A DNA stretch of 64,000 nt, from IMG/VR virus record IMGVR_UViG_3300045988_126550, positions 1 through 64,000 of that record; one strand, given 5' to 3'. Within the stretch, counting starts at the first letter, position 1, and every line of letters starts with the position of its first letter. This DNA comes from a virus. Below, in pieces: positions 3,786 to 62,669 of the stretch. The position numbers and the translations under genes were made by a program. The notes under the pieces were generated by a model. That model worked only from the letters and a program-made list of their open reading frames with translations. It searched no databases and was not told where the DNA came from.

Positions 3786-3800
3786 ATTAATTTTGTATTG
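3786..3800 (-). promoter_or_regulatory. conserved intergenic motif copy (consensus CAATACAAAATTAAT)
   Basis: Gene-strand CAATACAAAATTAAT, 6 nt after the capsid exon-2 stop, upstream of 3226..3759. Confidence 0.7.
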
Positions 3801-3806
3801 TTTAAA

Positions 3807-3893
3807 TTACTTAACAATCTTCCACATACCAAACTTCTGGTTAGTGATAACACTAAGGCCCATCTTGGTCTGTACCTCGTAATCATATGTCAT
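3807..3893 (-). CDS. major capsid protein, exon 2 (28 codons + stop)
   Basis: Own translation MTYDYEVQTKMGLSVITNQKFGMWKIVK*, in frame with exon 1 once intron 3894..5022 is removed. Below the 60-aa track cutoff. Confidence 0.7.
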   Translation of the reverse strand: MTYDYEVQTKMGLSVITNQKFGMWKIVK

Positions 3894-3902
3894 CCGTTAT
3901 GT

Positions 3903-4595
3903 TTAACAATTTTTACTTTCAACTTTTATCCATGATAATGGTTCGCCTGTAATTGGATGTTTGCCAGCGTGTTTTAAATGCCCATTTGCGCAACTAGTAA
4001 CATGACTTCTAGAAATGCCATATTTATTTTCTACATCTTTTGCACCCCAAAATGATTCATGTAATTCTGGACAATACAAAGGGACTGTTGCTCTTGGATT
4101 ATTTTTACCATTTACGTCTGCATGATTTACTGACATCTTACTTTTTGTTTCTTCTGTTATAACTCTTTCGTGGTTTGCTTTTCCTATCTTTGCTCGATGT
4201 TCCTCAGTAAAAATTCTTCCTTTAAGAGCTTCGCTAATTTTTAATCTTGTTTGTTCTGACATTGTTTTAATATCACGCGAACCTCCCGGTTCAATATTGT
4301 AACCAAAATCTTCATTGTCGGATTTGTAAAATGATATATAATAACGTTCACGCTCATCCAAATGCGCAGCATCGCACTCTTCTATGATATTAAATGTAAA
4401 ATTTTCAATACCATATTTATTGACCGCAAATTGCAAATGTCTATTTTTATGCTTATTGTGTTTAAGTTTAGTTTTATGTCCATATAGCCTATCTTTTAAA
4501 TTAACAGATTGACCAATGTATTTCTTCCCATTTATAATATTTTCGATACAATAAATACCAATTCGCTTTTCCACATTATCACCACCTTTTATCAT
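3903..4595 (-). CDS. GIY-YIG homing endonuclease (I-TevI-like: GIY-YIG + NUMOD3-type repeats + IENR1-like HTH)
   Basis: GIYCIENIINGKKYIGQSVNLKDRLYGHK... motif string. Repeated ..T.E.R.KIS/G modules. GTG 4574 with a GGTGGTGA SD is an alternative start. Lies inside the intron. Confidence 0.85.
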   Translation of the reverse strand: MIKGGDNVEKRIGIYCIENIINGKKYIGQSVNLKDRLYGHKTKLKHNKHKNRHLQFAVNKYGIENFTFNIIEECDAAHLDERERYYISFYKSDNEDFGYNIEPGGSRDIKTMSEQTRLKISEALKGRIFTEEHRAKIGKANHERVITEETKSKMSVNHADVNGKNNPRATVPLYCPELHESFWGAKDVENKYGISRSHVTSCANGHLKHAGKHPITGEPLSWIKVESKNC

Positions 4596-4769
4596 AATAT
4601 TAAAGTTGAAAGTAAATATAGGGCGCTACCCCTTGTTGACCTTTCGATCCTCTATTTTTCAATAGAGCGCAGACTATATCTTCACCCTTGCGGGTGTGTA
4701 CCACTTCCACATATCAATCGCTTATATGTGTACTTCCTTTCGGAATAGTCGTTGAACCTTTTCCAGCAT

Positions 4770-4799
4770 ATATTATATATAATAATTTTGTATTGTCAA
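4770..4799 (-). promoter_or_regulatory. sigma-A-like promoter inside intron (TTGACA-N18-TAATAT), motif in spacer
   Basis: Gene strand TTGACAATACAAAATTATTATATATAATAT; upstream of the GIY-YIG ORF. Confidence 0.5.
4781..4795 (-). promoter_or_regulatory. conserved intergenic motif copy
   Basis: Gene-strand CAATACAAAATTATT, overlapping the -35/spacer of the intron-internal promoter. Confidence 0.6.
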
Positions 4800-5022
4800 T
4801 TAGCAAAACGTACAATAATATATGCTAAAACTTGGCTGCTGATTATCCATTCTTACAGTGTTTAGGGTTTAACCTTGCACTATCTTAATACTTTTTTCCA
4901 CTTTCGCAGCATTCACGCTTAGTATTTAAACTTACGTTGTAGCGTATTAAGCTTTAGGAGTTTCCAGCAATTCGATACATTATTTCTCATACTCATTTCT
5001 GAATACGTGGACTATGTTGTTA

Positions 5023-6024
5023 ATCCATATGAGTTCCAGCATCCTGAACCTGATACATTTGAGTGTCACCTTCATAAACTAGCTTGATGAAAGGCTCGAC
5101 ACCAACAGGCATAATAAACAGAATATCATTGGCAATTAGATACTGAGTGGTATCGTTAAGCTTAAAGCCGTTCTTGAGTTCCACAAGTCTAATTCCTTCC
5201 CAATAACCAAACTTACCAGTAGTGTACTTCTCATCCTTCATGCTACCAGAAGCCCATTCAACCTTAGTAAGATCAAACACACTAGCAAGAGCAGCGCGAG
5301 TACCCATAATAACGACTTCGGAATCAGATGCCATACCAACATCCATACATAGAGTACGTAGGGTTTCCTTGGTTGCATCACTTAGAGCAGAAGACTTATA
5401 CCACTGAGCGCCTAGAGTAGTACCAACACCCATTAGGGCCTCATATAGAGCCTGATTGACATAACGATCAAACGCTTCAGTAATCTTACCAACTAGAGTT
5501 GCGAAATCTTCAACACCAGTAAGTAGTCTTTCAAATTCTGCATAAACCTTAAGGCCATACCAGCTAGTCTCGACGCTAAAGGTCTTGCCAGCCCCTAGTC
5601 TCTGTCTAATAATATCGTGATGATTGCCAGAAACCTTCATAACAGAAAGAACACTCTGATCCGGGCAATAGAACTCGTTCTTATCGCCAAGTGCTAGATT
5701 ACGAATTTCGACGAACTCCTTGAAGAAAGGATTCTCCTGCCAGCCACTAACTAGAGCATCATCAATAACGACCTCAATCAGATCAAAAAGAACTGCCTGA
5801 TTTCTACGAATACCTCTACGAATTTCTGCCTTGGTGGACTTTTCGTCACAACCAATAACATTGCGGAAAATCTCAACAATCTTCTGATTTGCTTCCTTTA
5901 CGGAAATGCCATCTAGAGCATTGTGAGCATAGTCAAGCATTAGCTTATTAAAAGCATTATAGTCATTTTCATTATTGTCAAATACATTCTTAACATTCAT
6001 ATCAAACTGCATAAACTTAGCCAT
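5023..6024 (-). CDS. major capsid protein, exon 1 (334 codons)
   Basis: Track ORF 5020..6045. ATG 6024 preferred (AAAGGAGGAAA SD). Position after the portal and scaffold genes, and size, fit a capsid protein. The in-frame TAA 5022-5020 is the first triplet of the intron. Confidence 0.7.
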
Positions 6025-6053
6025 AATTATTTCCTCCTTTCTCAATTTTCAAA

Positions 6054-6643: not shown

Positions 6644-6658
6644 AATAATTTTGTATTA
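6644..6658 (-). promoter_or_regulatory. conserved intergenic motif copy
   Basis: Gene-strand TAATACAAAATTATT, directly after the stop of 6660..8381 and about 60 nt upstream of 6054..6581. Confidence 0.6.
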
Positions 6659-9530: not shown

Positions 9531-9631
9531 AATATATCTGCCTCCCTTATAAGCATAAAGATAAAAGTGGTAAGAATATGATAAGGGCATATTCAACGGT
9601 TTGCAACCCGCTGTCCCACTTTTATAGCTAT

Positions 9632-9660
9632 ATTATAACACATTAATTTCGTATTGTCAA
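9632..9660 (-). promoter_or_regulatory. sigma-A-like promoter TTGACA-N17-TATAAT, motif in spacer
   Basis: Gene strand TTGACAATACGAAATTAATGTGTTATAAT; about 95-nt leader to the HNH start. Confidence 0.6.
9642..9656 (-). promoter_or_regulatory. conserved intergenic motif copy (variant)
   Basis: Gene-strand CAATACGAAATTAAT. Confidence 0.6.
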
Positions 9661-14863: not shown

Positions 14864-14878
14864 ATTAATTTTGTATTG
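14864..14878 (-). promoter_or_regulatory. conserved intergenic motif copy
   Basis: Gene-strand CAATACAAAATTAAT, between the stop at 14880 and the terminator hairpin. Confidence 0.7.
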
Positions 14879-16083: not shown

Positions 16084-16389
16084 TTATTCTCCATTAATTC
16101 TATATCTAAATGGCTGACTAAATTTGGCATATGGGATAACTCTTTCTGGGGCCATCAAAGTTGTATTATCACGCGGGTTTCTAACTTCGCGTGGGGCAAC
16201 TCTACGAGCGCCAATTGTAACACCGGGGATTAATTTCATCTCAGCATTTTCATCAAAACTTGCTTCCTGCATAACATCAACAACTAGCGCTTCTAGAGCA
16301 GTTAGAAACTCTTCAATATTATACTTATAAAAACCTGTACGATCTGCGAGTTCATTAATTATATCTTGCTTTTTTAGTATTTTATTCAT
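16084..16389 (-). CDS. HU/IHF-family histone-like DNA-binding protein
   Basis: MNK..KQDIINELADRTG..K..IEEFLTAL...V...L .. GARRVAPREVRNPRDNTTLMAPERVIPYAKFS, the characteristic beta-arm R-N-P motif. Confidence 0.8.
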   Translation of the reverse strand: MNKILKKQDIINELADRTGFYKYNIEEFLTALEALVVDVMQEASFDENAEMKLIPGVTIGARRVAPREVRNPRDNTTLMAPERVIPYAKFSQPFRYRINGE

Positions 16390-16402: not shown

Positions 16403-16415
16403 TAATTTGTATTTT
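16403..16415 (-). promoter_or_regulatory. degenerate motif copy
   Basis: Gene-strand AAAATACAAATTA followed directly by GGAGGAG, the SD of the HU-like gene. Confidence 0.4.
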
Positions 16416-18087: not shown

Positions 18088-18102
18088 ATTAATTTTGTAT
18101 TG
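18088..18102 (-). promoter_or_regulatory. conserved intergenic motif copy
   Basis: Gene-strand CAATACAAAATTAAT, between the stop at 18122 and the terminator hairpin. Confidence 0.7.
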
Positions 18103-18121: not shown

Positions 18122-19006
18122 CTACATATTCTTCTTTCTCTCTCTATATCTTTGTATTTCTAGCCTCTTTAATTCTCGCAAATGATCTCTTCTACATTGT
18201 TCGCATCTACAAGTTTCCGTAGCAAGAGGGCTTACTAAAAATCTTTTTCCACATTCAATACATTCAATTTCAACGTCACTAGATAACTCATAATCTGGGC
18301 GATGAATACTACAATACTTTGCTGAATTTGACCTAGCCTTAAACCATCTGCCACAAACATCGCATCTTTTATATCCACCATTTTTATAATTCAAAAATGC
18401 ATAAGCAAGTTCCAAATAATCATATTCATCAAGCGTAAGGACGACTTCGTCCTCATCATGATCTACAAAAGCGGCAGTCAAGGCATTATAACCTATACTG
18501 AAATTCTGTTTGAGTAATCCTTCCTTATATGCAAATCCAAAATACAAATCTCTATCTTTGGCTGGTATAACAACCCTTGCAAATTTAAATATTTCAGAAG
18601 TCTTTGCGTAAAATGTATCATTATCTCTTTGACTTTCGGCATTTTGATATTTTGCTAATGCTAAAATGACAAATGCAATTTTTTCTTTCCTTATATCATT
18701 TAAAGACATGATTTTGTCCATTTCTCTTTTTGTAATATTAATAGTATTTACATCTTTAATTTTATATTTATAAGCCTTATTAATATCCTTATTAATGGTA
18801 TTTATATACCCCTGATACATAAAACCATTATAATTTTGAGCCATAAAGTCAACAATTTTCCAAAATACATCATTCTTATCTGCAGGATTTAATTGTGTAT
18901 AATAAATTGCCGCATTCCAAATTGCCTGAGTTATACTAACCCCGTCAATATTTTTATCCTCTATAATGCTATAAATCCTACTTTTTTCATTAAAATTAAA
19001 TCTCAT
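18122..19006 (-). CDS. hypothetical protein, 294 aa, C-terminal Cys4-type Zn-ribbons plus a basic tail
   Basis: CDVCG..CSIH..CIECG..CRCEQC followed by RRDHLRELKRLEIQRYRERKK. Overlaps the stop of the RNAP-like gene by 11 nt. Confidence 0.6.
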   Translation of the reverse strand: MRFNFNEKSRIYSIIEDKNIDGVSITQAIWNAAIYYTQLNPADKNDVFWKIVDFMAQNYNGFMYQGYINTINKDINKAYKYKIKDVNTINITKREMDKIMSLNDIRKEKIAFVILALAKYQNAESQRDNDTFYAKTSEIFKFARVVIPAKDRDLYFGFAYKEGLLKQNFSIGYNALTAAFVDHDEDEVVLTLDEYDYLELAYAFLNYKNGGYKRCDVCGRWFKARSNSAKYCSIHRPDYELSSDVEIECIECGKRFLVSPLATETCRCEQCRRDHLRELKRLEIQRYRERKKNM

Positions 19007-21827: not shown

Positions 21828-21851
21828 ACGCACCACCTCCAAACCACAAAA

Positions 21852-23378: not shown

Positions 23379-23395
23379 AATTAATATTGTATTGT
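23379..23395 (-). promoter_or_regulatory. motif copy (variant ACAATACAATATTAATT)
   Basis: Read on the gene strand, just after the stop of 23406..23678. Confidence 0.5.
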
Positions 23396-44553: not shown

Positions 44554-45534
44554 ATGAACGGAAGACTTGAAGCTGAATTAAATAAACAAAAGTTAATTAA
44601 AGACAAACTTAAATATTTGCCTAAAGTTTTCGAAGAATTTTATTATTACATGGAGGAAGATGATAGATCATATAATACTATTGAGCATTATATTGATTAT
44701 AATGTAGAATTTATGAACTATATTACAAACGGGAATAAAGATGAATATTATTATAAAAATGTAAATTCAACGCACATCAAACAATTTATTAGTTCACAAC
44801 GTACTAAAGAAATTAATGGAGAGCTGGTTAGAATCGGTGATAGCATTTTGGCTACAAAATTTTCAGCTATTAAAAAATTCTTTTCATTTTTAAGTGATTC
44901 TAATTATATTGATGAAAATCCGGTAGAAGGAGTTCGAAGACCAAAAGTTAAAACAGATCATACGGTTACATTTCTTGAAGAAAACGAAATCAATAAGTTG
45001 TTTTCAAACATTAAAACAATGGCAAATGAAAGATTATTAAATAGAGATTTATGTATGTTTTCTTTGTTTATTTCTACTGGTCTTAGAAAATCTGCATTAG
45101 TGCAGATCAATGTAGAAGATATCAATTTTAAGACAAATACAATTAAGGTAATTGAAAAAGGGAGAAAGGAAAGGTTAATTAGTTTTGGCGGAAATATGAG
45201 ACAGCTTTTATTAAACTGGATTCAAGATAGAAGAGATTATTTTAAAGTAGAAGAAAGTGGGCCATTATTTGTTTCTCAATGGAACAATAGAATGTCTACA
45301 AAAAATGTAGAAATGTTGTTGGCGAAGTATCTAGATGGCGTGAGCGATAAACATATCACAGTTCATAAACTTAGAGCAACTGCTGCAACTCAAATGGCAG
45401 CACATGATGTTCCAGTTCAGGTTATAAAGGAAATGTTGAATCATGAAAATGTTTCCACAACAATGAGATATGTTGCTGCAATTGACAGCCAGAAGCAAGA
45501 GGCAGTTAATATTCTTGATAGCATCGTGAAATAA
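44554..45534 (+). CDS. tyrosine recombinase/integrase (XerC/D-like)
   Basis: ..TGLRKSAL.. (Arg I) and ..HKLRATAATQMA..V..LNHENVSTTMRYV (H-x-x-R ... Y). Confidence 0.8.
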   Translation: MNGRLEAELNKQKLIKDKLKYLPKVFEEFYYYMEEDDRSYNTIEHYIDYNVEFMNYITNGNKDEYYYKNVNSTHIKQFISSQRTKEINGELVRIGDSILATKFSAIKKFFSFLSDSNYIDENPVEGVRRPKVKTDHTVTFLEENEINKLFSNIKTMANERLLNRDLCMFSLFISTGLRKSALVQINVEDINFKTNTIKVIEKGRKERLISFGGNMRQLLLNWIQDRRDYFKVEESGPLFVSQWNNRMSTKNVEMLLAKYLDGVSDKHITVHKLRATAATQMAAHDVPVQVIKEMLNHENVSTTMRYVAAIDSQKQEAVNILDSIVK

Positions 45535-45536
45535 TC

Positions 45537-45565
45537 TTGACTAAATTAATATTGTATTGTATAAT
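45537..45565 (+). promoter_or_regulatory. sigma-A-like promoter TTGACT-N17-TATAAT with an inverted motif copy (45544-45559) in the spacer
   Basis: TTGACTAAATTAATATTGTATTGTATAAT. Confidence 0.6.
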
Positions 45566-45591
45566 GTAAACCATAAGGGAGTGAAAAGGAG

Positions 45592-46479
45592 ATGTTTGAC
45601 AAAGAACAAAAAGAGGCATTTATAAAAGAATACTTGAAGAGTAAGGTAGTCGCAAAAACTAGCCTTTATGCGGTTTTCAGAAAGACAGAACCATTTGAAG
45701 AGAAGCTAAATAAGGATGCATCACAATTTACAAGGGAAGAAATATTGGATATGTTTGCGCAATTCAGAGCGAAATCTGTTAATTCGTTGCTAAATTACGC
45801 TATCATATTGAAGCATTATTCACGTTTAATGCGTGGAGAAAATGAATACGAGTCAATTGCAAAAGCAGATGTTGTAGATCTTATTGATAAAAGTGGAAGC
45901 ATATTATTAAGTAGAGAGGAACTTGATGATATTGAAGCACAACTTTTAAATTGGAGTGATAAAGCAATTGTTGAACTTCTTTGGGATGGTGTTTCAAGGC
46001 AAAGCATGAAAGACATATATGCCGTTTCTGAAGAATGTGTACATGGCGATATTCTTCGTATAAATGGAAAAGAATTTCAAATTAGCAAACGTTTAAAAGA
46101 ATTGTTGCCGAAGGCATTTGCTGAGACGGAAATCATGAGCTATGGAAATACAATGCGTATAATTGAGGTAGAAGGTAAAGGAAGGCTTTATAAAGCAAGA
46201 GCAAATACTAGGAATGTCGATTCTAATGACCAAAAATTCCGTTACTTTTATCGCCGTATTCAAATATTTAGAGAGTATTTGGACATTCCGGGTTTAACTA
46301 TGAAGAATCTGAGTGCATCAGGAATGTTCCATTATCTTCAACTTGGCATAAAGGAAACAGGTTTGACACTTAGAGAGTTTTTAAAAACAGCAAAAGGAAA
46401 AGAGTTAGCGATGCAATACGATTTTGCTGAAGACTATTATGTTGATACGATAGCACAGAAATACGAGCAATATATTTAA
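45592..46479 (+). CDS. hypothetical protein, 295 aa
   Basis: Track ORF; GGGAGTG SD. Only vague resemblance to recombinase core-binding domains. Confidence 0.6.
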   Translation: MFDKEQKEAFIKEYLKSKVVAKTSLYAVFRKTEPFEEKLNKDASQFTREEILDMFAQFRAKSVNSLLNYAIILKHYSRLMRGENEYESIAKADVVDLIDKSGSILLSREELDDIEAQLLNWSDKAIVELLWDGVSRQSMKDIYAVSEECVHGDILRINGKEFQISKRLKELLPKAFAETEIMSYGNTMRIIEVEGKGRLYKARANTRNVDSNDQKFRYFYRRIQIFREYLDIPGLTMKNLSASGMFHYLQLGIKETGLTLREFLKTAKGKELAMQYDFAEDYYVDTIAQKYEQYI

Positions 46480-46522: not shown

Positions 46523-46551
46523 AGAAATATATAGCAGGGGAACATTAGTTC

Positions 46552-46617: not shown

Positions 46618-46869
46618 ATGGGACAAATACTTGAGGCATTAAGAGAAACAAAAGATAAAAATGTAGACATCTATACAGAGCATAAACTCTTCGGCAAGCA
46701 ACATATTCAAATGAAGTTTATACCAGAAACAGAAGCGGGATGGGGGTTCCGTGCACGTGGACAAGCAATCTATATTAATAAAGATGATGTTGTTTCATAT
46801 GATATTAACAACAGAAAGGTGGAAATTAAGGGAAAAATGATGAGTATAAAAATCATTTTAAGGTCTTGA
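46618..46869 (+). CDS. hypothetical protein, 83 aa
   Basis: AAGGGGAG SD. Confidence 0.6.
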   Translation: MGQILEALRETKDKNVDIYTEHKLFGKQHIQMKFIPETEAGWGFRARGQAIYINKDDVVSYDINNRKVEIKGKMMSIKIILRS

Positions 46870-47191: not shown

Positions 47192-47206
47192 CAATACAAA
47201 ATTAAT
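47192..47206 (+). promoter_or_regulatory. conserved intergenic motif copy
   Basis: CAATACAAAATTAAT, then TTAAAAGGAG. Confidence 0.7.
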
Positions 47207-48432: not shown

Positions 48433-48448
48433 AAAATACAAAATTAAT
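48433..48448 (+). promoter_or_regulatory. conserved intergenic motif copy
   Basis: AAAATACAAAATTAAT. Confidence 0.65.
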
Positions 48449-48490: not shown

Positions 48491-50104
48491 ATGACATCAG
48501 GGGGAGTACATTTGGAAGAGGAAAAGACATATAAAGAATTTATACAGAATATTTTAGATACTCGTGGAAGATTTAATTGCGGAGATGGGTATCATGAGCG
48601 GCATCATATCTTACCTAAGTGTCTTGGTGGCGGAAATGAGGAAGAGAATCTAATTGATCTTTATGCTAAAGAACACTTTATAGCGCATAAGTTATTGGCA
48701 TTAGAAAATCCTGATAATAATGGGTTACAATATGCTTGGTGGGCTATGTCAAATATGAAGACTGAATTTACAAAAGAGAGATATCACGCATCCCCAGAGG
48801 AATATGAAGAAGCCAAAACAGCATTTAGCATAATGATGAGGGAAAAATCATGTATGCCTGTTGTTCAATTAGATTTACTTGGAAATTATATTTCAAAATA
48901 TAAAAGTTGTGCAGAAGCAGAGTTTATTCTTGGTATAGATAGCAGATATATTGTTGATTGTAAAAATCACAAAAGAGGACATGCTTGTGGTTTTATATTT
49001 ATTTCAGAAGATGAGTATGATTCAAACAAAAATTATAGATATAAATTTCCAGGAAGAGAAGTTGTTCAATTCGCCATTGATGGAAGTTATATTGCAACAT
49101 TTATTAATCCTCCTACTGCAGCAAGAGAAATTGGAGTTAATGTTGTGTCTATTAGGAGTTGTTGCTGTGAACAAGGTAATACTGCTGGTGGATTTAGATG
49201 GATGTATTTAGATGAATGGGATGGTAAAAAACTAAGTCCAATTGAATATGACTATAAAAATCAAAGGGCCATAGTCGATATAAAAAGAGAAACAATTCAA
49301 GTAAATAGATATGATAATAGAGGTAGATATATTTGCACATATGATAGTGTAAACGATGCAGCATTTGATGCAGGATGTGCATCTACAAATATTAGTCGCT
49401 GTTGTAGAGAAATTCATAAAATGATAGATAATTGCTATTGGAGATATACAAACGAATGTGACGGAGCAAATGATATTATTATAGAAACATATAAATATAA
49501 TCAACATAAGCCAGTGATTCAATTATCATTAGATGGAGAGTTTATTGCGGTATATAATTCTATGGTAGAGGCGGAACGGATCGCAGGAGTACCGGCAGGA
49601 TGTATTTCTGGATGCTGTTGTGGTACGCAATTTACAGCAGGTAATTATTTATGGGTATTAGCATCAGAATACGATAAAGGAAATATCCCAGTATATCATC
49701 CACGACAAACAGTTGCCGTTATTCAACTTGATAAAAACGGAACATTTGTTAGAAAATATAATTCAATAAAAGAAGCACAAGACGCAACCGGTGTCAATAG
49801 TTGCAATATTATTATATGCTGTCAAAAATCAAATTTATCGGCAGGTGGTTTTCAATGGATATATGAAAAAGATTACGATCCTAATAAAATATATCCGCCA
49901 GTTAAAGTTCACGAAAGAAGAGTTGTTAAACTAACAATTGATATGAAGTATATAGAAACATTTGATAGTGTTAGTTTGGCTGCTGCTTCTGTTGGGAAAA
50001 AATCTCCGGCAATTATCAGAAATTGCAAGCATCCACATCTTACGGCGTATGGCTTTAAATGGATGTACGAAGAAGATTATATAAAATTACTTACAGACAC
50101 TTGA
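48491..50104 (+). CDS. HNH homing endonuclease with six tandem IENR1/NUMOD1-like HTH repeats
   Basis: N-terminal ~85 aa are a close paralogue of 8628..9530 (HERHHILPKCLGGGNEEENLIDLYAKEHFIAH). Six ~50-aa repeats end in ..AGGF(R/Q)W(M/I)Y. Start uncertain (TTG 48512 possible). Confidence 0.85.
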   Translation: MTSGGVHLEEEKTYKEFIQNILDTRGRFNCGDGYHERHHILPKCLGGGNEEENLIDLYAKEHFIAHKLLALENPDNNGLQYAWWAMSNMKTEFTKERYHASPEEYEEAKTAFSIMMREKSCMPVVQLDLLGNYISKYKSCAEAEFILGIDSRYIVDCKNHKRGHACGFIFISEDEYDSNKNYRYKFPGREVVQFAIDGSYIATFINPPTAAREIGVNVVSIRSCCCEQGNTAGGFRWMYLDEWDGKKLSPIEYDYKNQRAIVDIKRETIQVNRYDNRGRYICTYDSVNDAAFDAGCASTNISRCCREIHKMIDNCYWRYTNECDGANDIIIETYKYNQHKPVIQLSLDGEFIAVYNSMVEAERIAGVPAGCISGCCCGTQFTAGNYLWVLASEYDKGNIPVYHPRQTVAVIQLDKNGTFVRKYNSIKEAQDATGVNSCNIIICCQKSNLSAGGFQWIYEKDYDPNKIYPPVKVHERRVVKLTIDMKYIETFDSVSLAAASVGKKSPAIIRNCKHPHLTAYGFKWMYEEDYIKLLTDT

Positions 50105-50128
50105 TAAATTCACAAAATATGATATTAT
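50101..50128 (+). promoter_or_regulatory. sigma-A-like promoter TTGATA-N16-TATTAT
   Basis: Followed after 5 nt by TACAAAATTA. Confidence 0.5.
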
Positions 50129-50130
50129 AA

Positions 50131-50145
50131 CAATACAAAATTAAT
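50131..50145 (+). promoter_or_regulatory. conserved intergenic motif copy
   Basis: CAATACAAAATTAAT, then AGGAAGAAGGAAA. Confidence 0.7.
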
Positions 50146-55282: not shown

Positions 55283-55310
55283 TTGACAAACCGAAAATCT
55301 ATGATATAAT
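55283..55310 (+). promoter_or_regulatory. sigma-A-like promoter TTGACA-N16-TATAAT
   Basis: Followed after 5 nt by TACAAAATTA. Confidence 0.65.
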
Positions 55311-55313
55311 CAT

Positions 55314-55328
55314 AGTACAAAATTAATT
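55314..55328 (+). promoter_or_regulatory. conserved intergenic motif copy
   Basis: AGTACAAAATTAATT, then GGAAGGTGA. Confidence 0.7.
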
Positions 55329-55804: not shown

Positions 55805-56821
55805 ATGATTAATAAACTTAAGCAGATGCTATTAGAGAATCCAGAGAACATTGCCGCCCTCCTTTCCGCATATGATTTTGAGAAGATATCTATACGTAAT
55901 AATGAACTACGCTTTGCACATGATTCAGATGGTGGCGCAAATAATGTATCTATTCGTACAGACCAAGATAGAAATTCTTACTTAAATGTGGCAGATTATA
56001 GCCATGGTATTTATACGGATATATTTAGCTATATCATTCAAGAGCGTGGAGTGACGTTTAAGGATGTTCTGACAACAACTAAGAATATTTTAGGACTTGA
56101 TGAACATTGGACTGCGCCAAGTAAATGTAGACCTCTGTTCGGAGGAATTTACCAACGAATCATTAATAAAACTTCTCCAGAACCAAAGGTATATCCAGAA
56201 GAAATCTTGAAGCAGTATGTTCAAATTGGAAATGAACTTTGGCTTAAAGACGGAATAAGTCTTGAAGTGCAGAGAGAATTTGATGTGTGTTTTTCTCCAG
56301 AAGATAATGCAATAATTTTTCCATGGAGAGATGCAAAAGACGATATTATCGCAATTAAATCAAGATATAATGGTACGCCACCAGAAGGTATGAGCAAATA
56401 TTTTTATCCTGTAGGCGGCAATATATCAAGCAGCCTATATGGATATAGTCACAATTATCAATACTTATATGGTAATGATGTTGTAATTACAGAAGCGGAA
56501 AAGAGTTGCCTTCAAGGTTGTACATTTAAATACAGAAATATTGTTGCGATTGGTTCTAATAATCTGAGTGAAGCACAGGCGAAGTTAATATTGCAATTAC
56601 AACCAAAAAGAATTATTATGGCACTCGACGAAGGTTTGGAGTTTGAGCAAGTAAAAAAGAATTTAGACTTATTAAAATCACTTGCTACAATGAGGCAAGT
56701 GGAACTTTACTATTGGGATAGCACATTAGATTTGGACATTCCATCTAAAGCATCTCCTACGGATATGGGAGTAGAAAAATTCAATGAAATAATGCAGGAA
56801 CAGCTTGTAGAATATACTTGA
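55805..56821 (+). CDS. TOPRIM-domain primase-like protein
   Basis: VVITEAEKSCLQG (TOPRIM Glu) and IIMALDEGLE (acidic DxD-like); sits next to the helicase module. Confidence 0.5.
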   Translation: MINKLKQMLLENPENIAALLSAYDFEKISIRNNELRFAHDSDGGANNVSIRTDQDRNSYLNVADYSHGIYTDIFSYIIQERGVTFKDVLTTTKNILGLDEHWTAPSKCRPLFGGIYQRIINKTSPEPKVYPEEILKQYVQIGNELWLKDGISLEVQREFDVCFSPEDNAIIFPWRDAKDDIIAIKSRYNGTPPEGMSKYFYPVGGNISSSLYGYSHNYQYLYGNDVVITEAEKSCLQGCTFKYRNIVAIGSNNLSEAQAKLILQLQPKRIIMALDEGLEFEQVKKNLDLLKSLATMRQVELYYWDSTLDLDIPSKASPTDMGVEKFNEIMQEQLVEYT

Positions 56822-56845
56822 CAAACTAGTATTTTATGTTATAAT
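56818..56845 (+). promoter_or_regulatory. sigma-A-like promoter TTGACA-N16-TATAAT
   Basis: The -35 overlaps the stop of 55805..56821. Followed after 5 nt by TACAAAATTA. Confidence 0.65.
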
Positions 56846-56847
56846 GA

Positions 56848-56862
56848 CAATACAAAATTAAA
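56848..56862 (+). promoter_or_regulatory. conserved intergenic motif copy
   Basis: CAATACAAAATTAAA followed by GGAG. Confidence 0.7.
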
Positions 56863-59542: not shown

Positions 59543-59543
59543 C

Positions 59544-59557
59544 AGCACGAAATTAAT
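59544..59557 (+). promoter_or_regulatory. motif copy (variant AGCACGAAATTAAT)
   Basis: Followed directly by GAGGTGA. Confidence 0.5.
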
Positions 59558-59799: not shown

Positions 59800-60236
59800 A
59801 TACTCTAAACATTGAAGCCAAGCTTGCGCAAAAATATGGGTATAAACCATTGCCAAAAGACTTGTCGAAAAAATATAGACAGTTTTATATTGATAATCTT
59901 CCTGAAAGATTTATCATAGGTGGTTCAGATGATACCTTATGTACTAAGAATGGCACAGTTGTATGTAATGGTTATACTCGTATTGTCGTTGGTGACTATG
60001 GGGCGTTTATAGAATTTGATAAAGAACAAGCAAACTTTGATAAATATATTATTGCTCCAGGACAGGAATATAGGGTCAATGATCCAAAGTATTCAAAGAA
60101 TGTAAAATACATTTGGATGACTATTACCGATGGAAGCAATATTAAAATATATAAACAGAAGAAAAAAGTGGCTTATGCAGATTACAGAAGCGGAATGTTT
60201 TATATTAGCCCACATGAGTGTGTAATACAAAATTAA
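59796..60236 (+). CDS. hypothetical protein, 146 aa
   Basis: Track ORF. The last codons V-I-Q-N-stop are encoded by the motif copy. Confidence 0.6.
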   Translation: MNTLNIEAKLAQKYGYKPLPKDLSKKYRQFYIDNLPERFIIGGSDDTLCTKNGTVVCNGYTRIVVGDYGAFIEFDKEQANFDKYIIAPGQEYRVNDPKYSKNVKYIWMTITDGSNIKIYKQKKKVAYADYRSGMFYISPHECVIQN

Positions 60237-60237
60237 T
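60222..60237 (+). promoter_or_regulatory. conserved motif copy overlapping the 3' end of 59796..60236
   Basis: GTAATACAAAATTAAT, then GGATGTGA. Confidence 0.65.
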
Positions 60238-60502: not shown

Positions 60503-60507
60503 TATAG

Positions 60508-62230
60508 ATGAAGTATAAATTAATTGGTAAAAATGATAAAGAAAATTTAATTGAGCAAGTTCTACTTAATAGAGGCATCGAGAATCCAGAGGAATACCTT
60601 TCTCTGGATTCAAGTTGCATAAATGACTATGATAATCTTGATAATATGGAAGAAGCCGTTGACTGCTTTGCGAAGCATTTTGAAAGGGGTGATTTGGTCG
60701 CTATCCTCGTTGATAGCGATCCCTGATGGATTTTCAAGTGCAGCAATGTTATATAATTATATCAAGATGTTAGATAAAGATTACCCCGTTAGGTATATTT
60801 TACATAAAAATAATAAAGCACATGGCCTTGCAAAGATGGATAATGGAGATTTTAATATTCCAGATGGTACAAAGTTATTTATAGTACCAGATGCAGGAAC
60901 AAATGATTCTGAGCAATTTAATAAACTTATTGATAATGGTGTTGATTGTATTTGCCTAGATCATCATGAGGCTGAAGATATAGCAAAATCAAATAAGACT
61001 ATTATTGTTAACAATCAAATGAGCAAAAATTACACAGATAAAGATTTTTCAGGTGCAGGAATTGTGATGGAATTTTTAAGGGCATTGGACGATTATTATA
61101 TCTGTGATTATGCAGATAAATTTTTAGACTTGTGTGCTTTTGCAAATATCAGTGATGTTATGGATATACGTAATTCTCAAACAAGATACTATATTGAAGA
61201 GGGTATTAAAAATGTACGAAATAAATTCTTACTAGCACTTGCAAAAGCACAAGAATTTAGCACAAAAGGTGTTACGAATATTCATACTATTTCGTGGTAT
61301 TGGACACCTATCCTAAACAGCATGATACGTATTGGTGAAATTGAGGATAGAGATCTCGTGTTTAGGGCTTTTATTGAAACAGATGAAGTATTTCCATATA
61401 AAAAACGTGGAAGTTACGTTGAAGTCGATGAAGATATTTATACAAGAGCAGCGAGACTTTGTAAAAATATTAAAGCCAAACAAGATAAGATGAGAGATGC
61501 CTTGTATGATGATCTCAAAGACGAGATTAATCCAGATGATAAAGTTGTTATACTTGTTGCAAATGGTGCAGACAGTGGCATTGTAGGTTTGTCAGCAATG
61601 AAGTTATGTGATTATGCACAGAAGCCGACCATACTTCTTCAAGAGTACAAGGATGGTGTTCTTGGTGGTTCTGCGAGAAATTATGATGGATCTCCAGTGA
61701 AAGATTTTAAAGAGTTGGTAAATTCTGTTGGATTGTTTAACTTTGCTCAAGGACATTCAGGTGCATTTGGCGTAGATATTGATGAAAATAAACTTGAAGA
61801 TGCGAGAGTGGCACTTAATGAAGCTCTTAATCATATTGAATATGACGATACTATTTATGTTGATTTTATTTTTGAGCCTTATGATTTAGATGCAGACTTC
61901 TTTCAGATACTTGATAAGAACCAATGGGTTTGGGGGCACGGGATTTCTGAGCCTTTGGTCGCAGTAGAAGGTGCTACAGTTTCTACAGATGAAATTGCTA
62001 TTATGGGCAAGGATAAAAATTCTATCTCATTTTTTGCAGACGGTGTAAAGTATTGCAAGTTTAAACTTTCGCAAGATGATGAACTGCTGCAGTTGGCAAA
62101 TGAAGCATCAGGAGAAGAAATTAAGCTTAATGTTGTTGGAGAATGCAGTATTAATGATTATGGTGGAAAAAGAGTGGCGCAAATGATTATTAATAATTAT
62201 GAAGTGCTTGACAAATCGGAAAAATCGTGA
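60508..62230 (+). CDS. RecJ-like DHH-family ssDNA exonuclease, interrupted by a +1 frame change at 60721-60726 (CCC TGA)
   Basis: Track ORFs 60508..60726 and 60623..62230 join as ..VAILVDSDP|DGFSSAAML.., restoring DHH motif I (D-x-D-x-D-G). Downstream: DAGTND, CLDHHEAE (DHH), and a GGSARN/GHSGAFG DHHA1-like region. Confidence 0.8.
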
Positions 62231-62236
62231 TATAAA
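62208..62236 (+). promoter_or_regulatory. sigma-A-like promoter TTGACA-N17-TATAAA, inside the 3' end of the RecJ-like ORF
   Basis: Followed after 5 nt by TACAAAATTA. Confidence 0.6.
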
Positions 62237-62238
62237 TA

Positions 62239-62253
62239 CAATACAAAATTAAT
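62239..62253 (+). promoter_or_regulatory. conserved intergenic motif copy
   Basis: CAATACAAAATTAAT, then TGAGGAGGAG. Confidence 0.7.
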
Positions 62254-62267
62254 TGAGGAGGAGCGCT

Positions 62268-62654
62268 ATGACCTGTATTGAAAAGTATAACGAACAAAAA
62301 AATATAACAAATAAGATTATCGTCAATCTTAATAAGGCCAAAGGCCTTACTGCTATTGGGAAAGAAGATTCTCGCAACGACAAGTATCAAATTATGTTTT
62401 ACGATCATAAAATCTGGGATGGTGATATTCAAGTATACTTTCATGCGTCATATGGGTATTATGGGGATTCTAGTGGCTATAGTGCTTGTTGCCCAGAGAT
62501 GCAGGATTATCTTTTAAAGGCACTTAATCATTATAAGGGTGAGATTGTAGATTATATTATGGAGCAAGCAGAAAAGGATAAAAATGATGCTTTGTTGGCT
62601 TGCAAGCAAGAAGCCGAGAGTATTTTAAAGCAAATTGAAGAGAAGATGCTGTGA
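62268..62654 (+). CDS. hypothetical protein, 128 aa
   Basis: Track 62253; ATG 62268 preferred (GAGGAGGAG SD). Confidence 0.6.
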   Translation: MTCIEKYNEQKNITNKIIVNLNKAKGLTAIGKEDSRNDKYQIMFYDHKIWDGDIQVYFHASYGYYGDSSGYSACCPEMQDYLLKALNHYKGEIVDYIMEQAEKDKNDALLACKQEAESILKQIEEKML

Positions 62655-62655
62655 G

Positions 62656-62669
62656 AGTACAAAATTAAT
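62656..62669 (+). promoter_or_regulatory. conserved intergenic motif copy
   Basis: AGTACAAAATTAAT followed directly by GGAGGAGG. Confidence 0.7.

What the first reader, a model, noticed from the sequence alone, without database searches (positions are those of the whole stretch)
3786..62669. About 31 copies of a 15-nt motif (CAATACAAAATTAAT) placed immediately 5' of ribosome-binding sites on both arms
SEEN: On the gene strand, (C)AATACAAAATTAAT recurs across the window. The near-invariant core is TACAAAATTA, with a few variants (ACGAAATTA, ACAATATTA, ACAAATTA). Copies before minus-arm genes start at 3786, 4781, 6644, 8627, 9642, 14864, 16403, 18088, 23379, 25884 and 26256. Copies before plus-arm genes start at 32040, 35375, 36418, 37101, 38829, 39601, 40330, 41453, 43419, 46508, 47192, 48433, 50131, 55314, 56848, 59544, 60222, 62239 and 62656. 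Every copy is in the orientation of the downstream gene except one inverted copy (45544). In most cases a GGAGG-type SD starts 0-6 nt after the motif. There are three context classes. (a) At five sites a TTGACA/TTGATA-N16-17-TATAAT-like promoter is followed by exactly 5 nt and then TACAAAATTA (CACAAAATTA in one). These are 26301-26256 on minus, and 50101, 55283, 56818 and 62208 on plus. A sigma-A start point there would fall on the first bases of the motif. (b) At five sites the motif fills the -35/-10 spacer (4799, 9660, 39593, 43413, and 45537 inverted). (c) About 20 sites have no recognisable host-type promoter. No copy lies between 26.3 and 32.0 kb. KNOWN: Several kinds of element present as gene-proximal, orientation-specific repeats. 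These include phage-specific promoters (T7-type), operators of global phage regulators, preferred sites of HU-type binders (SPO1 TF1) and translational operators (T4 RegA). INFERENCE: This is a phage-specific cis element governing most non-early units. Candidate readers encoded in the window are the RdRP/YonO-like polymerase (18996..21842), the HU-like protein (16084..16389) and the wHTH protein (25933..26241). Sequence alone cannot separate DNA-level from RNA-level function.
Basis: partly seen in the sequence, partly recalled or inferred. Interest (0 to 1): 0.8.

Follow-up and report, generated by a model that had tools for sequence, protein, structure and literature searches.

The report
Repressor operator boxes across a phage
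The repeated 15-16-base motif is real. It is most likely the DNA docking site of this phage's integrase-like master repressor, a relative of SPbeta MrpR/SroF, placed on nearly every strong host-type promoter and in many gene gaps to keep the phage silent, and not a promoter for the phage's own RNA polymerase.

Summary
There are 24 exact TACAAAATTA copies against 0.84 expected, and about 31 copies of A-CAATACAAAATTAAT-(G). Thirty of 31 point the same way as the local genes, and 26 of 30 lie in the 11% of the window that is non-coding.

The window is part of a ~150-170 kb uncultured SPbeta-like phage. It encodes a homologue of the SPbeta master repressor MrpR/YopR/SroF, which published work shows binds as a monomer to an asymmetric A/T-rich box at many distant sites.

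The window motif follows the same placement rules as the SPbeta and phi3T boxes:
- It fills the -35/-10 spacer of sigma-A promoters.
- It starts exactly 2 nt after the -10.
- It sits directly 5' of a ribosome-binding site.

Nine of the 11 strongest sigma-A promoters in the window carry it. An inverted copy sits in the repressor gene's own promoter. The window's only LexA box lies just downstream of that gene, ahead of a small ORF, matching the SroF-Sar layout. Distant SroF-like lineages have different boxes placed the same way. Relatives that encode the polymerase at 46% identity or less have no dense motif.

About two thirds of copies have no promoter. These resemble mycobacteriophage L5 "stoperators". 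Binding itself is untested, and box-to-box sequence similarity alone is not significant (P about 0.08).

The parts
45592..46479 (+). Gene for a 295-aa MrpR/YopR/SroF-family integrase-fold protein, the proposed reader of the motif
   Evidence: Pfam MrpR_N_CB scores 48.8 bits against a cut-off of 27. phmmer against PDB gives 9rd5 at 1e-9 and MrpR/YopR 8a0a/8bj6 at about 1e-7. Foldseek top hits are 'Phi3T SroF bound to DNA', then MrpR and YopR, though the model is poor (pLDDT 64). BLASTP against SPbeta YopR gives E 2e-10. A full-length alignment includes YopR and Geobacillus E3 gp146.
45537..45571 (+). Sigma-A promoter of the repressor gene (TTGACT-N17-TATAAT) with the inverted motif copy (45545-45559, minus strand) as its spacer
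   Evidence: Promoter score 14.2. The promoter and inverted box are identical in 9 relatives, although the upstream coding sequence exists as two different alleles.
44554..45534 (+). XerD-like tyrosine recombinase directly upstream of the repressor gene (YopP/SroD-like position)
   Evidence: Pfam Phage_integrase at 5e-35. PDB XerD at 1.6e-17. BLASTP against SPbeta YopP gives E 1e-4. Geobacillus E3 has the same integrase-then-MrpR-like gene order.
46540..46551 (+). LexA (Cheo) box GAACATTAGTTC overlapping the -35 of a TTGCAT-N17-TAGAAT promoter
   Evidence: This is the only GAAC-N4-GTTC in the 64 kb. The alternative allele in relatives has CGAACTAATGTTTG at the same place. The position matches the SOS box ahead of sar in phi3T and SPbeta (bioRxiv 10.1101/2025.11.27.690993).
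46618..46869 (+). 83-aa ORF, candidate Sar-like antirepressor (assigned by position only)
   Evidence: It lies just downstream of the repressor gene and the SOS box. It has no Pfam or PDB similarity, so the assignment is an inference.
26256..26301 (-). Class a: sigma-A promoter TTGACA-N17-TATTAT, 2 nt, then motif CAACACAAAATTAAC (26256-26270); precedes the wHTH gene 25933-26241
   Evidence: promoter score 14.4.
25884..25928 (-). Class a: TTGACA-N16-(TGT)TATAAT, 2 nt, then motif (25884-25898); heads the operon that leads to the polymerase gene
   Evidence: promoter score 15.9.
50101..50145 (+). Class a: TTGATA-N16-TATTAT, 2 nt, then motif (50131-50145); precedes the AAA_24 protein and DnaB-like helicase genes
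55283..55327 (+). Class a: TTGACA-N16-TATAAT, 2 nt, then motif (55313-55327); precedes the 141-aa gene and the primase gene
   Evidence: promoter score 15.9.
56818..56862 (+). Class a: TTGACA-N16-TATAAT, 2 nt, then motif (56848-56862)
   Evidence: promoter score 15.9.
62208..62253 (+). Class a: TTGACA-N17-TATAAA, 2 nt, then motif (62239-62253)
   Evidence: promoter score 11.3.
35345..35389 (+). Weak class a: TTGACA-N18-TCTAAT, 2 nt, then motif variant CAAAACAAAATTATT (35375-35389)
   Evidence: promoter score 10.4.
4766..4799 (-). Class b: motif (4781-4795) forms the spacer of TTGACA...TATAAT. It lies inside the group I intron match and precedes the GIY-YIG homing endonuclease gene
   Evidence: (promoter score 14.4).
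9626..9660 (-). Class b: motif CAATACGAAATTAAT (9642-9656) forms the spacer of TTGACA...(TGT)TATAAT; precedes homing endonuclease gene 8628-9596
   Evidence: (promoter score 16.9).
39593..39621 (+). Class b: motif (39600-39614) in the spacer. This copy forms the full palindrome ATACA-AAATTAA-TGTAT
   Evidence: (promoter score 15.4).
43413..43441 (+). Class b: motif CAAAACAAAATTAAT (43417-43431) in the spacer of TTGACA...TAAGAT
   Evidence: promoter score 14.4.
3786..3800 (-). Class c copy (no strong promoter), 26 nt before the ATG at 3759
6644..6658 (-). Class c copy, 1 nt after the upstream stop codon and 74 nt before the next start codon
8627..8641 (-). Class c copy overlapping the stop codon of the homing-endonuclease gene, with an SD directly after it
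14864..14878 (-). Class c copy 1 nt after the stop codon of the YonJ-like exonuclease gene. A terminator-like hairpin follows (about 14827-14853), at the head of the structural-gene block
16403..16413 (-). One-base-shorter variant AATACAAATTA directly 5' of the SD of the HU-like gene
18088..18102 (-). Class c copy after the 294-aa gene, followed by a hairpin (ATGCAAGT...ACTTGCAT)
23380..23394 (-). Class c copy (ACAATATTA variant)
32040..32054 (+). Class c copy, the first on the plus arm, 1 nt after a stop codon
36417..36431 (+). Class c copy, with an SD immediately after it
37101..37115 (+). Class c copy just after a terminator-like hairpin and before an HNH endonuclease gene
38829..38843 (+). 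Class c copy
40330..40344 (+). Class c copy, exact 15-mer, 0 nt after the stop codon
41453..41467 (+). Class c copy lying in the last codons of the upstream gene; its TAA serves as that gene's stop codon
46507..46521 (+). Class c copy 27 nt after the repressor gene and upstream of the LexA box. Relatives diverge into two alleles right after it
47192..47206 (+). Class c copy, exact 15-mer, before the 395-aa gene
48434..48448 (+). Class c copy after a hairpin and before a homing-endonuclease gene
59543..59557 (+). Degenerate class c copy CAGCACGAAATTAAT (3 mismatches)
60223..60237 (+). Class c copy overlapping the stop codon of the upstream gene
62655..62669 (+). Class c copy before an HNH endonuclease gene

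Best explanation
The motif A-CAATACAAAATTAAT-(G) is the DNA operator box of the phage's master repressor. That repressor is the MrpR/YopR/SroF-family, integrase-fold protein encoded at 45592-46479. By analogy with phi3T SroF, one repressor monomer clamps one asymmetric A/T-rich box.

Proposed action at each class of site:
- About a third of the boxes sit at two fixed positions on strong sigma-A promoters. In class b the box is the -35/-10 spacer and shares its CA with TTGACA. In class a the box begins 2 nt after the -10, over the start point. A bound repressor there would block host RNA polymerase from binding or escaping.
- The remaining two thirds lie in short gaps between genes, all oriented with transcription. 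I propose they act as roadblocks to read-through transcription, or as extra loading sites, in the manner of mycobacteriophage L5 stoperators. Together the sites would keep the whole ~160 kb genome silent.
- An inverted box in the repressor gene's own promoter would give autoregulation.
- Release would come from a small antirepressor expressed from the LexA-box promoter immediately downstream of the repressor gene.

Shown here: the motif statistics, the placement rules, the protein homology, the layout of the switch, and the pattern across relatives.

Inferred: that this protein binds this box, that binding represses, and that promoter-less copies block elongation.
For: 1. A homologous repressor is encoded in the window. 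It follows an integrase gene, as yopR follows yopP in SPbeta and gp146 follows gp148 in Geobacillus E3.
2. Published work establishes how the family behaves. MrpR binds the SPbeta repeated element at 10 promoter regions by ChAP-seq and EMSA (PMC10516654). SroF of phi3T binds as a monomer to an asymmetric 26-bp A-tract box, with many sites spread across the genome (bioRxiv 10.1101/2025.11.27.690993).
3. I re-derived those boxes from the SPbeta and phi3T sequences. They follow the same placement rules as the window motif: gene-oriented, in the -35/-10 spacer, between the -10 and the SD, or directly 5' of the SD.
4. The boxes share sequence with the window motif. The SPBRE has AATACAAAA, and the window's ACAAAATTAATG compares with phi3T's ATAAAATTACTG.
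5. Nine of the 11 strongest sigma-A promoters in the window carry the motif, at only two fixed positions. Across the family, 22 sites have the -10 ending exactly 2 nt before the motif and 22 have the motif in the spacer.
6. The inverted copy in the repressor gene's promoter is invariant in relatives.
7. The only LexA box in the window lies between the repressor gene and a small ORF.
8. Distant SroF-like lineages (24-25% identity) carry a different box, AATG(T/A)TTTAATCAAAA, placed by the same rules.
9. The motif is under purifying selection, with 94% identity against 81% in the flanks.
Against: - No binding data exist for this protein and this motif.
- Sequence similarity between the window motif and the SPBRE or the phi3T box is not significant on its own in this A/T-rich setting (12 of 17 matches, P about 0.08; PWM test P = 0.07).
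- The conserved core is 16-17 nt, whereas SroF reads 24 bp.
- Density is about 0.5 per kb, including the structural-gene block. SPbeta has about 10 ChAP-seq peaks in 134 kb and no SPBRE in the part of its late operon that I examined.
- Two thirds of the copies have no promoter, so a repressor function there rests only on analogy with L5.
- No integrated prophage copy was found, so lysogeny is not shown.
- The 83-aa ORF has no detectable similarity to Sar.
- Within the family the motif does not change while the repressor varies from 67 to 90% identity, so there is no fine-scale co-variation.
Confidence: 0.62

Rival explanations
1. The motif is the promoter or initiator recognised by the phage's YonO-like single-chain RNA polymerase (18996-21842). 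Transcription would start inside or at the end of the motif, giving short leaders ahead of each ribosome-binding site.
For: - There are about 31 gene-oriented copies in gaps between genes on both arms.
- The phage encodes its own polymerase.
- No YonO promoter sequence has yet been defined (PMC5467207).
- Some copies follow terminator-like hairpins (37101, 48434).
- The motif persists in relatives whose polymerase is 56-98% identical.
Against: - The motif sits at two fixed positions on strong sigma-A promoters, including inside the spacer and once inverted. A separate polymerase promoter would have no reason to do this.
- In SPbeta, YonO starts a single late operon at one site about 0.7-0.9 kb upstream of yonK (PMC5467207). 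I found no SPBRE in the yonN-yonK gap of SPbeta. In phi3T no box match better than 6 mismatches lies in the equivalent gap upstream of yonK.
- Phages that encode the polymerase at 46% identity or less show no dense motif. This covers many IMG/VR loci, c-st and PMBT24.
- L177, whose polymerase is 56% identical to the window's and 72% to a motif-bearing relative, has no motif in 16 kb.
- Two copies are followed at once by terminator-like hairpins.
Confidence: 0.12
2. The motif is a DNA site for a different phage-encoded regulator, such as the wHTH protein at 25933-26241, the HU-like protein at 16084-16389, or a factor encoded outside the window. It would act as repressor or activator.
For:
- The wHTH gene itself sits behind a class a promoter.
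- About 100 kb of the genome lies outside the window.
Against: - The wHTH protein gives only sub-threshold HTH hits.
- HU-type proteins are not known to read a 16-nt sequence with this precision (general knowledge).
- HU and the polymerase are present in c-st and PMBT24, which lack any such motif.
- The only family with experimentally shown asymmetric, multi-site, A/T-rich boxes placed this way is MrpR/SroF, and its homologue is present here with a box in its own promoter.
Confidence: 0.13
3. The motif works in the mRNA. It could be a leader element next to the ribosome-binding site that serves as a translational operator or enhancer, a stability element, or a processing site.
For: - Most copies end 0-8 nt before an SD.
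- Class a promoters would start transcripts at about motif position 5, so those mRNAs begin with the motif.
- The motif is single-strand-specific in orientation.
Against: - Class b copies lie upstream of the predicted start point.
- One copy is inverted and conserved.
- Where the gap between genes is long, the motif sits next to the upstream stop codon, 74-127 nt from the next start.
- Two copies are separated from the next gene by a terminator-like hairpin.
- No Rfam family matches at the gathering threshold.
- The homologous boxes in SPbeta and phi3T are bound as DNA (PMC10516654; bioRxiv 10.1101/2025.11.27.690993).
Confidence: 0.07
4. The motif is mainly a recombination or mosaic-boundary sequence, or a repeat spread by homing-endonuclease cassettes, with no regulatory role of its own.
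For: - Homology blocks between the window and relatives end within 15 nt of a motif 26 times, against 3.4 expected.
- Several homing-endonuclease genes are flanked by copies.
- Relatives diverge into two alleles right after the copy at 46507.
Against: - Gene starts without the motif also collect block ends, at 54 per 91 starts against 32 per 32 motif sites. The excess over ordinary gene boundaries is therefore modest.
- This idea does not explain the fixed positions on sigma-A promoters or the strict orientation.
- Boundary effects would be expected as a by-product of any conserved short sequence.
Confidence: 0.04

Closest known systems
SPBRE / SroF box, the operator of the integrase-fold master repressor MrpR (YopR, SroF) of Bacillus phages SPbeta and phi3T
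   Same: - A homologous repressor gene is present, next to an integrase gene.
- The box is asymmetric, A/T-rich and A-tract-rich, and present at many distant sites.
- Orientation follows the downstream gene.
- Positions match: in the sigma-A spacer, between the -10 and the SD, or directly 5' of the SD (searches compared with 24, 50).
- Sequence is shared: AATACAAAA with the SPBRE, and A(C/T)AAAATTA(A/C)TG with the phi3T box.
- A LexA box and a small ORF lie next to the repressor gene, as with sar (bioRxiv 10.1101/2025.11.27.690993).
   Different: - The repressor is only about 25% identical to YopR.
- The host is not Bacillus. This is an uncultured gut-type phage, and no arbitrium module was seen in the window.
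- The conserved core is 16-17 nt, against a 22-26 bp box.
- There are about 31 copies in 64 kb, against about 10 peaks in 134 kb.
- Copies extend into the structural-gene block.
- Two thirds of copies have no promoter.
- The repressor gene has its own promoter with an inverted box, instead of lying inside a six-gene sro operon.
Operators and 'stoperators' of the mycobacteriophage L5 (cluster A) repressor gp71
   Same: - The site is short and asymmetric, and bound by a monomer in L5.
- There are more than 20 sites spread over both arms in short gaps between genes.
- Orientation correlates strikingly with the direction of transcription.
- Some sites lie on the early lytic promoter and the rest are without a promoter (PMC9283540; compare).
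   Different: - The repressor fold is unrelated: an HTH plus stoperator domain in L5, against an integrase fold here.
- The host phylum and the motif sequence differ.
- A block to elongation is demonstrated for L5 and is only inferred here.
Phage-polymerase promoters (T7-type; YonO of SPbeta)
   Same: A conserved, oriented motif lies ahead of many genes in a phage that encodes its own RNA polymerase.
   Different: - The motif is locked to host-type promoters at fixed positions.
- It does not track the polymerase across relatives.
- SPbeta YonO uses a single late promoter that is not an SPBRE (PMC5467207).

Membership tests
MrpR/SroF repressor with SPBRE-type operator (SPbeta family) | The phage encodes an MrpR/YopR/SroF-family protein with an integrase fold | tested here: met
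   Pfam MrpR_N_CB scores 48.8 bits against a cut-off of 27. PDB phmmer E values are 1e-9 to 1e-7. Foldseek top six hits are SroF, MrpR and YopR. A full-length alignment includes YopR and E3 gp146.
MrpR/SroF repressor with SPBRE-type operator (SPbeta family) | The recombinase catalytic signature is lost | tested here: inconclusive
   In alignment A2 the segment LTMKN..SG stands where I would expect the recombinase H-x-x-R box, a placement made from memory because no recombinase is in that alignment. A C-terminal Tyr (Y291) is conserved. MrpR_C_cat is below cut-off, at 19.6 against 27 bits. No structure-based residue mapping was possible with a model at pLDDT 64.
MrpR/SroF repressor with SPBRE-type operator (SPbeta family) | An asymmetric A/T-rich box is repeated at many distant sites, oriented with genes, on or next to sigma-A promoters | tested here: met
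   The same placement rules were re-derived for SPbeta and phi3T.
MrpR/SroF repressor with SPBRE-type operator (SPbeta family) | The box sequence is related to known SroF/MrpR boxes | tested here: inconclusive
   12 of 17 positions match both the SPBRE consensus and the phi3T box in the same orientation, but shuffles give P about 0.08.
MrpR/SroF repressor with SPBRE-type operator (SPbeta family) | The repressor physically binds the box and represses the adjacent promoters | not testable with these tools
   This needs EMSA, footprinting, ChAP-seq and reporter assays.
MrpR/SroF repressor with SPBRE-type operator (SPbeta family) | An SOS-box-controlled small antirepressor gene (sar) lies next to the repressor gene | tested here: inconclusive
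   The unique LexA box at 46540-46551 precedes an 83-aa ORF, and relatives have a LexA-like box at the same place. The ORF shows no similarity to any PDB chain, Sar included.
MrpR/SroF repressor with SPBRE-type operator (SPbeta family) | An arbitrium module (aimR-aimP-aimX) is linked to the repressor operon | tested here: not met
   Nothing AimR-like was found in the window. The neighbouring 395-aa protein has no PDB, Pfam or PHROG match. The roughly 100 kb outside the window was not examined.
L5-type operator/stoperator system | More than 20 short asymmetric sites lie in short gaps between genes across the genome, oriented with transcription | tested here: met
   31 sites in 64 kb; 30 of 31 co-oriented; 26 of 30 in non-coding sequence.
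L5-type operator/stoperator system | A gp71-type HTH/stoperator-domain repressor is present | not tested
   No search for gp71 homologues was run. The candidate reader here has a different, integrase-type fold.
L5-type operator/stoperator system | Transcription elongation is blocked in an orientation-dependent way at promoter-less sites | not testable with these tools
   This needs reporter constructs with the site in both orientations, with and without the repressor.
Phage RNA-polymerase promoter | The motif (or a lineage-specific equivalent) tracks the polymerase gene across relatives | tested here: not met
   No dense motif is present in c-st, PMBT24 or BUCT082, nor in loci whose polymerase is 33-46% identical. 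L177, at 56% identity, lacks it.
Phage RNA-polymerase promoter | Polymerase-dependent transcripts start at the motif | not testable with these tools
   This needs differential RNA-seq, 5'-RACE or in vitro transcription.
Translational operator / mRNA leader element (RegA-type) | The element is always in the transcript, at a constrained distance from the ribosome-binding site | tested here: not met
   Five copies lie in promoter spacers, one of them inverted. Copies at 6644, 14864, 18088 and 46507 lie 74-127 nt from the next start, next to the upstream stop codon.

The most novel reading that the evidence does not exclude
The box has two uses. As well as being the repressor's operator, its 5' part (ACAATAC) would be the start signal for the YonO-like two-barrel RNA polymerase at the roughly 20 promoter-less copies. 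One bound repressor would then shut out both the host and the phage polymerases. This would give the first defined promoter for a YonO-type enzyme.

The evidence does not exclude this reading. Class a sigma-A promoters are predicted to start at the same bases. No YonO promoter sequence is known. The promoter-less copies have no demonstrated function.
Probability: 0.1. Interest if true: 0.85.

Novelty: new variant of a known kind. Interest (0 to 1): 0.45.

Why it matters
If correct, four things follow.
- The recently described integrase-fold repressor switch (MrpR/SroF, Sar and LexA) extends beyond Bacillus arbitrium phages, into an abundant family of ~160 kb uncultured phages that encode a YonO-like RNA polymerase.
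- Such a repressor can be deployed at very high site density, on essentially every strong host-type promoter and in many gaps between genes. That pattern converges on the L5 stoperator strategy using an unrelated protein fold.
- There is now a concrete, cheap experiment: one protein and one 16-26 bp DNA.
- The motif is removed from the list of candidate YonO-type promoters. This helps anyone looking for the still-unknown promoter of that polymerase family.

Tried and rejected
- Megablast of 8.5 kb against cultured phages found nothing. Only protein-level relatives exist.
- K-mer searches for an equivalent dense motif in c-st, PMBT24, BUCT082 and phi3T found none of comparable copy number.
- PWM and consensus comparisons of the window motif with the SPBRE and the phi3T box were not significant in this A/T-rich background (P = 0.07-0.09). 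I therefore do not rest the case on sequence similarity.
- A second half-site (TGTAT at +14, which would make an SPBRE-like palindrome) is present in only 15 of 152 sites, mostly where it overlaps an extended -10. I treat the box as asymmetric.
- Homology-block end points are enriched at motifs, but gene starts without a motif are also enriched. I rejected this as a primary explanation.
- The AlphaFold2 model of the repressor was poor (pLDDT 64, pTM 0.39). I used only the ranking of Foldseek hits, not the TM-scores.
- The 83-aa ORF and the 395-aa neighbour showed no similarity to Sar or AimR.
- The genome-contig scan returned only a 147 kb contig of a MAG labelled Prevotella. The GGAGG ribosome-binding sites, TTGACA/TATAAT promoters and GAAC-N4-GTTC LexA box argue for a Firmicute host, so I regard the binning as unreliable. 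No integrated prophage was found.
- Geobacillus virus E3 has an MrpR-like gene and an enriched palindrome in gaps between genes, ATAAAA-N5-TTTTA (24 against 5.5 expected). I could not link that element to the repressor.
- I could not place the published SPbeta YonO start site (168 genome coordinate 2225998) on the phage record to the nucleotide.

Full report

Yes. The 10-nt core TACAAAATTA occurs 24 times, against 0.84 expected from dinucleotide-preserving shuffles (largest shuffle value 3). The 15-mer CAATACAAAATTAAT with up to 2 mismatches occurs 32 times, against 1.5 expected.

Thirty of 31 are oriented like the local genes (P = 1.5e-8). Twenty-six of 30 lie mostly in the 10.9% of the window not covered by called genes (P about 2e-21).

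From 152 non-redundant sites collected in 42 related IMG/VR loci, the element is 16-17 nt long: A at -1 (90%), then CAATACAAAATTAAT, then G at +15 (53%). No other conserved position lies within 45 nt upstream or downstream. In orthologous alignments to relatives at 90% identity or less, motif positions are 94% identical against 81% in the flanks.

**2. What is the window?**

No cultured phage is similar at the DNA level. The 948-aa protein is a YonO/RdRP-like polymerase. It is 36% identical to that of Clostridium phage c-st and the Enterocloster phages, and 27-29% identical to those of the SPbeta-like phages.

The gene order runs polymerase, an overlapping ~294-aa gene, HU-like, YonJ-like phosphoesterase, terminase, portal. 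The same order is seen in SPbeta, phi3T, BUCT082, c-st and PMBT24. Close relatives, with polymerase 86-99% identical, are numerous metagenomic contigs of 150-170 kb.

The minus arm carries the polymerase operon and the structural genes. The plus arm carries small genes, several homing endonucleases, an integrase pair, and replication genes (helicase, primase, RecJ-like).

**3.

The 295-aa product of 45592-46479 belongs to the MrpR/YopR/SroF family.
- Pfam MrpR_N_CB scores 48.8 bits against a cut-off of 27.
- phmmer against PDB hits 9rd5/9rgl at 1e-9 and MrpR/YopR at about 1e-7.
- BLASTP against SPbeta YopR gives E 2e-10.
- A full-length alignment includes YopR and Geobacillus E3 gp146.
- The six best Foldseek hits of an admittedly poor model are 'Phi3T SroF bound to DNA', MrpR, the SroF-Sar complex and YopR.

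A XerD-like integrase gene lies directly upstream, as yopP precedes yopR in SPbeta.

[quoted passage not shown] SroF of phi3T binds as a monomer, clamp-like, to an asymmetric 26-bp A-tract box, with many sites across the genome. It is released by the antirepressor Sar, whose gene lies next to sroF under a LexA box (bioRxiv 10.1101/2025.11.27.690993).

**4. The same placement rules in the experimentally studied phages**

I re-derived the SPBRE from the SPbeta record, using the regions upstream of the ChAP-seq target genes. It reads AAATACAAA(A/T)AATATGTATA(T/A)A. In phi3T the published box, read in gene orientation as CATTAAGAATAAAAATAAAATTACTG, recurs around yonP and yonO.

In both phages the box points with the downstream gene. 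It sits in one of three places:
- in the -35/-10 spacer (yonP and yorE in SPbeta; TTTACA-box-TATAAT in phi3T);
- a few nt after the -10 (yopV);
- directly 5' of the SD (yopM, yopV, the second yonX copy, and phi3T 4360 and 4574).

The window motif shares AATACAAAA with the SPBRE, and A(C/T)AAAATTA(A/C)TG with the phi3T box. In this A/T-rich setting, however, 12 of 17 matches is not significant (P about 0.08). I count the sequence resemblance as suggestive only.

**5. Coupling to host-type promoters**

I scanned the window with a sigma-A scoring matrix. Of the 11 strongest promoters (score 14 or more), nine carry the motif.
- Four have the -10 ending exactly 2 nt before the motif.
- Four have the motif as the spacer, with its CA completing TTGACA.
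- One has it inverted in the spacer.

Of the two exceptions, 36147 is followed by a possible degenerate copy and 46866 has none. Among 90 genes without a motif, none has a promoter of that strength.

Family-wide, 22 sites have the -2 position exactly, 22 have the spacer position, and 101 have no strong promoter. Such fixed overlap with the polymerase-binding surface is what operators show. A second polymerase's promoter or an mRNA element would not need it.

**6. The switch around the repressor gene**

The repressor gene has its own promoter (TTGACT-N17-TATAAT), and its spacer is the single inverted motif copy. Promoter and box are identical in nine relatives, although the coding sequence upstream exists as two alleles.

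Twenty-seven nt after the gene comes another motif copy. The only GAAC-N4-GTTC of the whole window follows, at 46540-46551. It overlaps the -35 of a promoter for an 83-aa ORF. Relatives with a different downstream allele have CGAACTAATGTTTG at the same place.

This reproduces the sroF, SOS box, sar arrangement. The small ORF, however, has no detectable similarity to Sar, and no AimR-like protein was found.

**7. Pattern across relatives**

- The motif is kept in relatives whose polymerase is 56-98% identical and, in the loci examined, whose repressor is 67-71% identical.
- It is absent from all loci whose polymerase is 33-46% identical, and these show no alternative dense motif.
- L177, whose polymerase is 56% identical to the window's and 72% to a motif-bearing relative, has none in 16 kb.
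- A distinct lineage whose SroF-like protein is only 24-25% identical carries a different repeat, AATG(T/A)TTTAATCAAAA. It is again placed 2 nt after a -10, directly before an SD, or flanking a promoter.

The placement rules therefore follow the presence of SroF-like repressors, and the box sequence differs between repressor lineages. Dense motifs are not a general property of phages that encode the polymerase. In SPbeta, YonO starts one late operon from a single site (PMC5467207). I found no SPBRE in the yonN-yonK gap of SPbeta. In phi3T no box match better than 6 mismatches lies in the equivalent gap upstream of yonK.

**8. Mechanism proposed**

Shown:
- the motif statistics;
- the two fixed promoter positions;
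- the homologous repressor and the layout of its switch;
- conservation of the motif.

Inferred:
- The 295-aa protein binds one box as a monomer.
- At class a and class b sites it excludes or traps host RNA polymerase. This would keep silent the polymerase operon (26301, 25928), the replication genes (50101, 55283, 56818, 62208) and the self-promoted homing-endonuclease genes (4799, 9660).
- The two thirds of copies without a promoter act as oriented roadblocks or extra loading sites. This is the logic shown for the >20 asymmetric, transcription-oriented operator and stoperator sites of mycobacteriophage L5 (PMC9283540).
- DNA damage releases the repressor through the small gene under the LexA box.

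The closeness of the motif to the SD is largely a result of compact gaps between genes. Where a gap is long, the motif sits next to the upstream stop codon (6644, 14864, 18088, 46507).

**9. Rivals**

- Promoter for the YonO-like polymerase: confidence 0.12.
- Site for another DNA-binding regulator: 0.13.
- mRNA-level element: 0.07.
- Recombination boundary without regulatory function: 0.04.

The evidence for and against each is given in the structured fields. The main explanation carries 0.62.

Its principal weaknesses are these:
- There are no binding data.
- Box similarity is not significant.
- Site density is about five times that of SPbeta and extends into the structural genes.
- There is no evidence yet that this phage forms lysogens.

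**10. Novelty and verdict**

The kind of element, an operator box of an integrase-fold master repressor, is known from SPbeta and phi3T (2023-2025). This is a divergent member in an uncultured, non-Bacillus phage family. It has a markedly different deployment: about 0.5 sites per kb on both arms, most without promoters, and a repressor gene with its own promoter.

I rate it a new variant of a known kind, of moderate interest. The finding is not a candidate YonO promoter. That reading keeps about a 10% chance and would be of high interest if experiments proved it.

Noticed in passing
window 4650-5032 (-), with ORFs 5020-6045 and 3903-4595: A group I intron (Rfam RF00028, 68.9 bits, full model) begins at the end of the phrog_4088 ORF (5020-6045). 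The class b sigma-A promoter plus motif (4766-4799) lies inside the intron match. A GIY-YIG homing-endonuclease ORF (3903-4595) follows. Exon 2 was not located.
   Followed up: partly
window 26300-26560: Iteron-like direct and inverted repeats GTGTCC(C/T)AATTTTCGGAA, with runs of 'aatataat', lie in the divergent gap between genes. This coincides with the sign change of the GC skew and looks like a replication origin or another protein-binding array.
   Followed up: no
window 27400-32040: This stretch has 43-45% G+C against 33-36% elsewhere and about 16 small plus-strand genes. It has no 15-mer motif copy and no strong sigma-A promoter. How it is transcribed is unclear. One isolated core copy lies just upstream of this stretch, at 27086-27095 (-).
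   Followed up: no
window 3903-4595, 8628-9596, 37127-38332, 48491-50104, 53578-55017, 62686-63438: There are six homing-endonuclease-type genes (GIY-YIG, HNH and others) in 64 kb. Most are flanked by motif copies, and two have their own sigma-A promoter with the motif as spacer.
   Followed up: partly
window 46866-46930 (+): This is one of the two strong sigma-A promoters without a motif (TTGACA-N16-(TGG)TATAAT, score 15.9). It sits just after the 83-aa ORF and is followed by a GGGCAC...GTGCCC hairpin. It may drive a small RNA or the leader of the 103-aa ORF.
   Followed up: no
window 14865/14877, 18104, 25891, 48441 compared with loci L122-L133: Homology blocks between the window and its relatives often begin or end at motif copies (26 end points within 15 nt against 3.4 expected). 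This suggests the shared box serves as a crossover point for module exchange. Gene boundaries without a motif also collect end points.
   Followed up: partly
L171, L173, L174 (IMG/VR contigs 3300045988_160425, _143395, _153448): A different large-phage lineage with a 24-25% identical SroF-like gene carries its own repeat, AATG(T/A)TTTAATCAAAA. It is placed 2 nt after -10 hexamers, directly before SDs, and flanking promoters. L172 has yet another repeat (ATATTTGRAAAATA, then the SD).
   Followed up: partly
L148 (Geobacillus virus E3, NC_029073 86138-127007): E3 has the integrase, YopQ-like, MrpR-like gene order. It also has an enriched palindrome in gaps between genes, ATAAAA-N5-TTTTA(T), before many SDs (24 against 5.5 expected). 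E3 was not among the tblastn hits of the YonO-like polymerase.
   Followed up: partly
L001 9130-9280 (phi3T, upstream of yonK): There are two copies of a ~26-nt repeat, CAGTTG(A/G)CA(G/A)GCAACATAAAAACTTG, in the long non-coding region where the YonO-dependent late transcript of SPbeta-like phages is reported to start. This may be relevant to the unknown YonO promoter.
   Followed up: no
L147 (USJD01000001.1, 147 kb): The only hit in the species-representative genome set is a whole-phage-sized contig in a MAG labelled 'uncultured Prevotella sp.'. The GGAGG ribosome-binding sites, TTGACA/TATAAT promoters and Firmicute-type LexA box argue against a Bacteroidota host, so the contig is probably mis-binned.
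   Followed up: no
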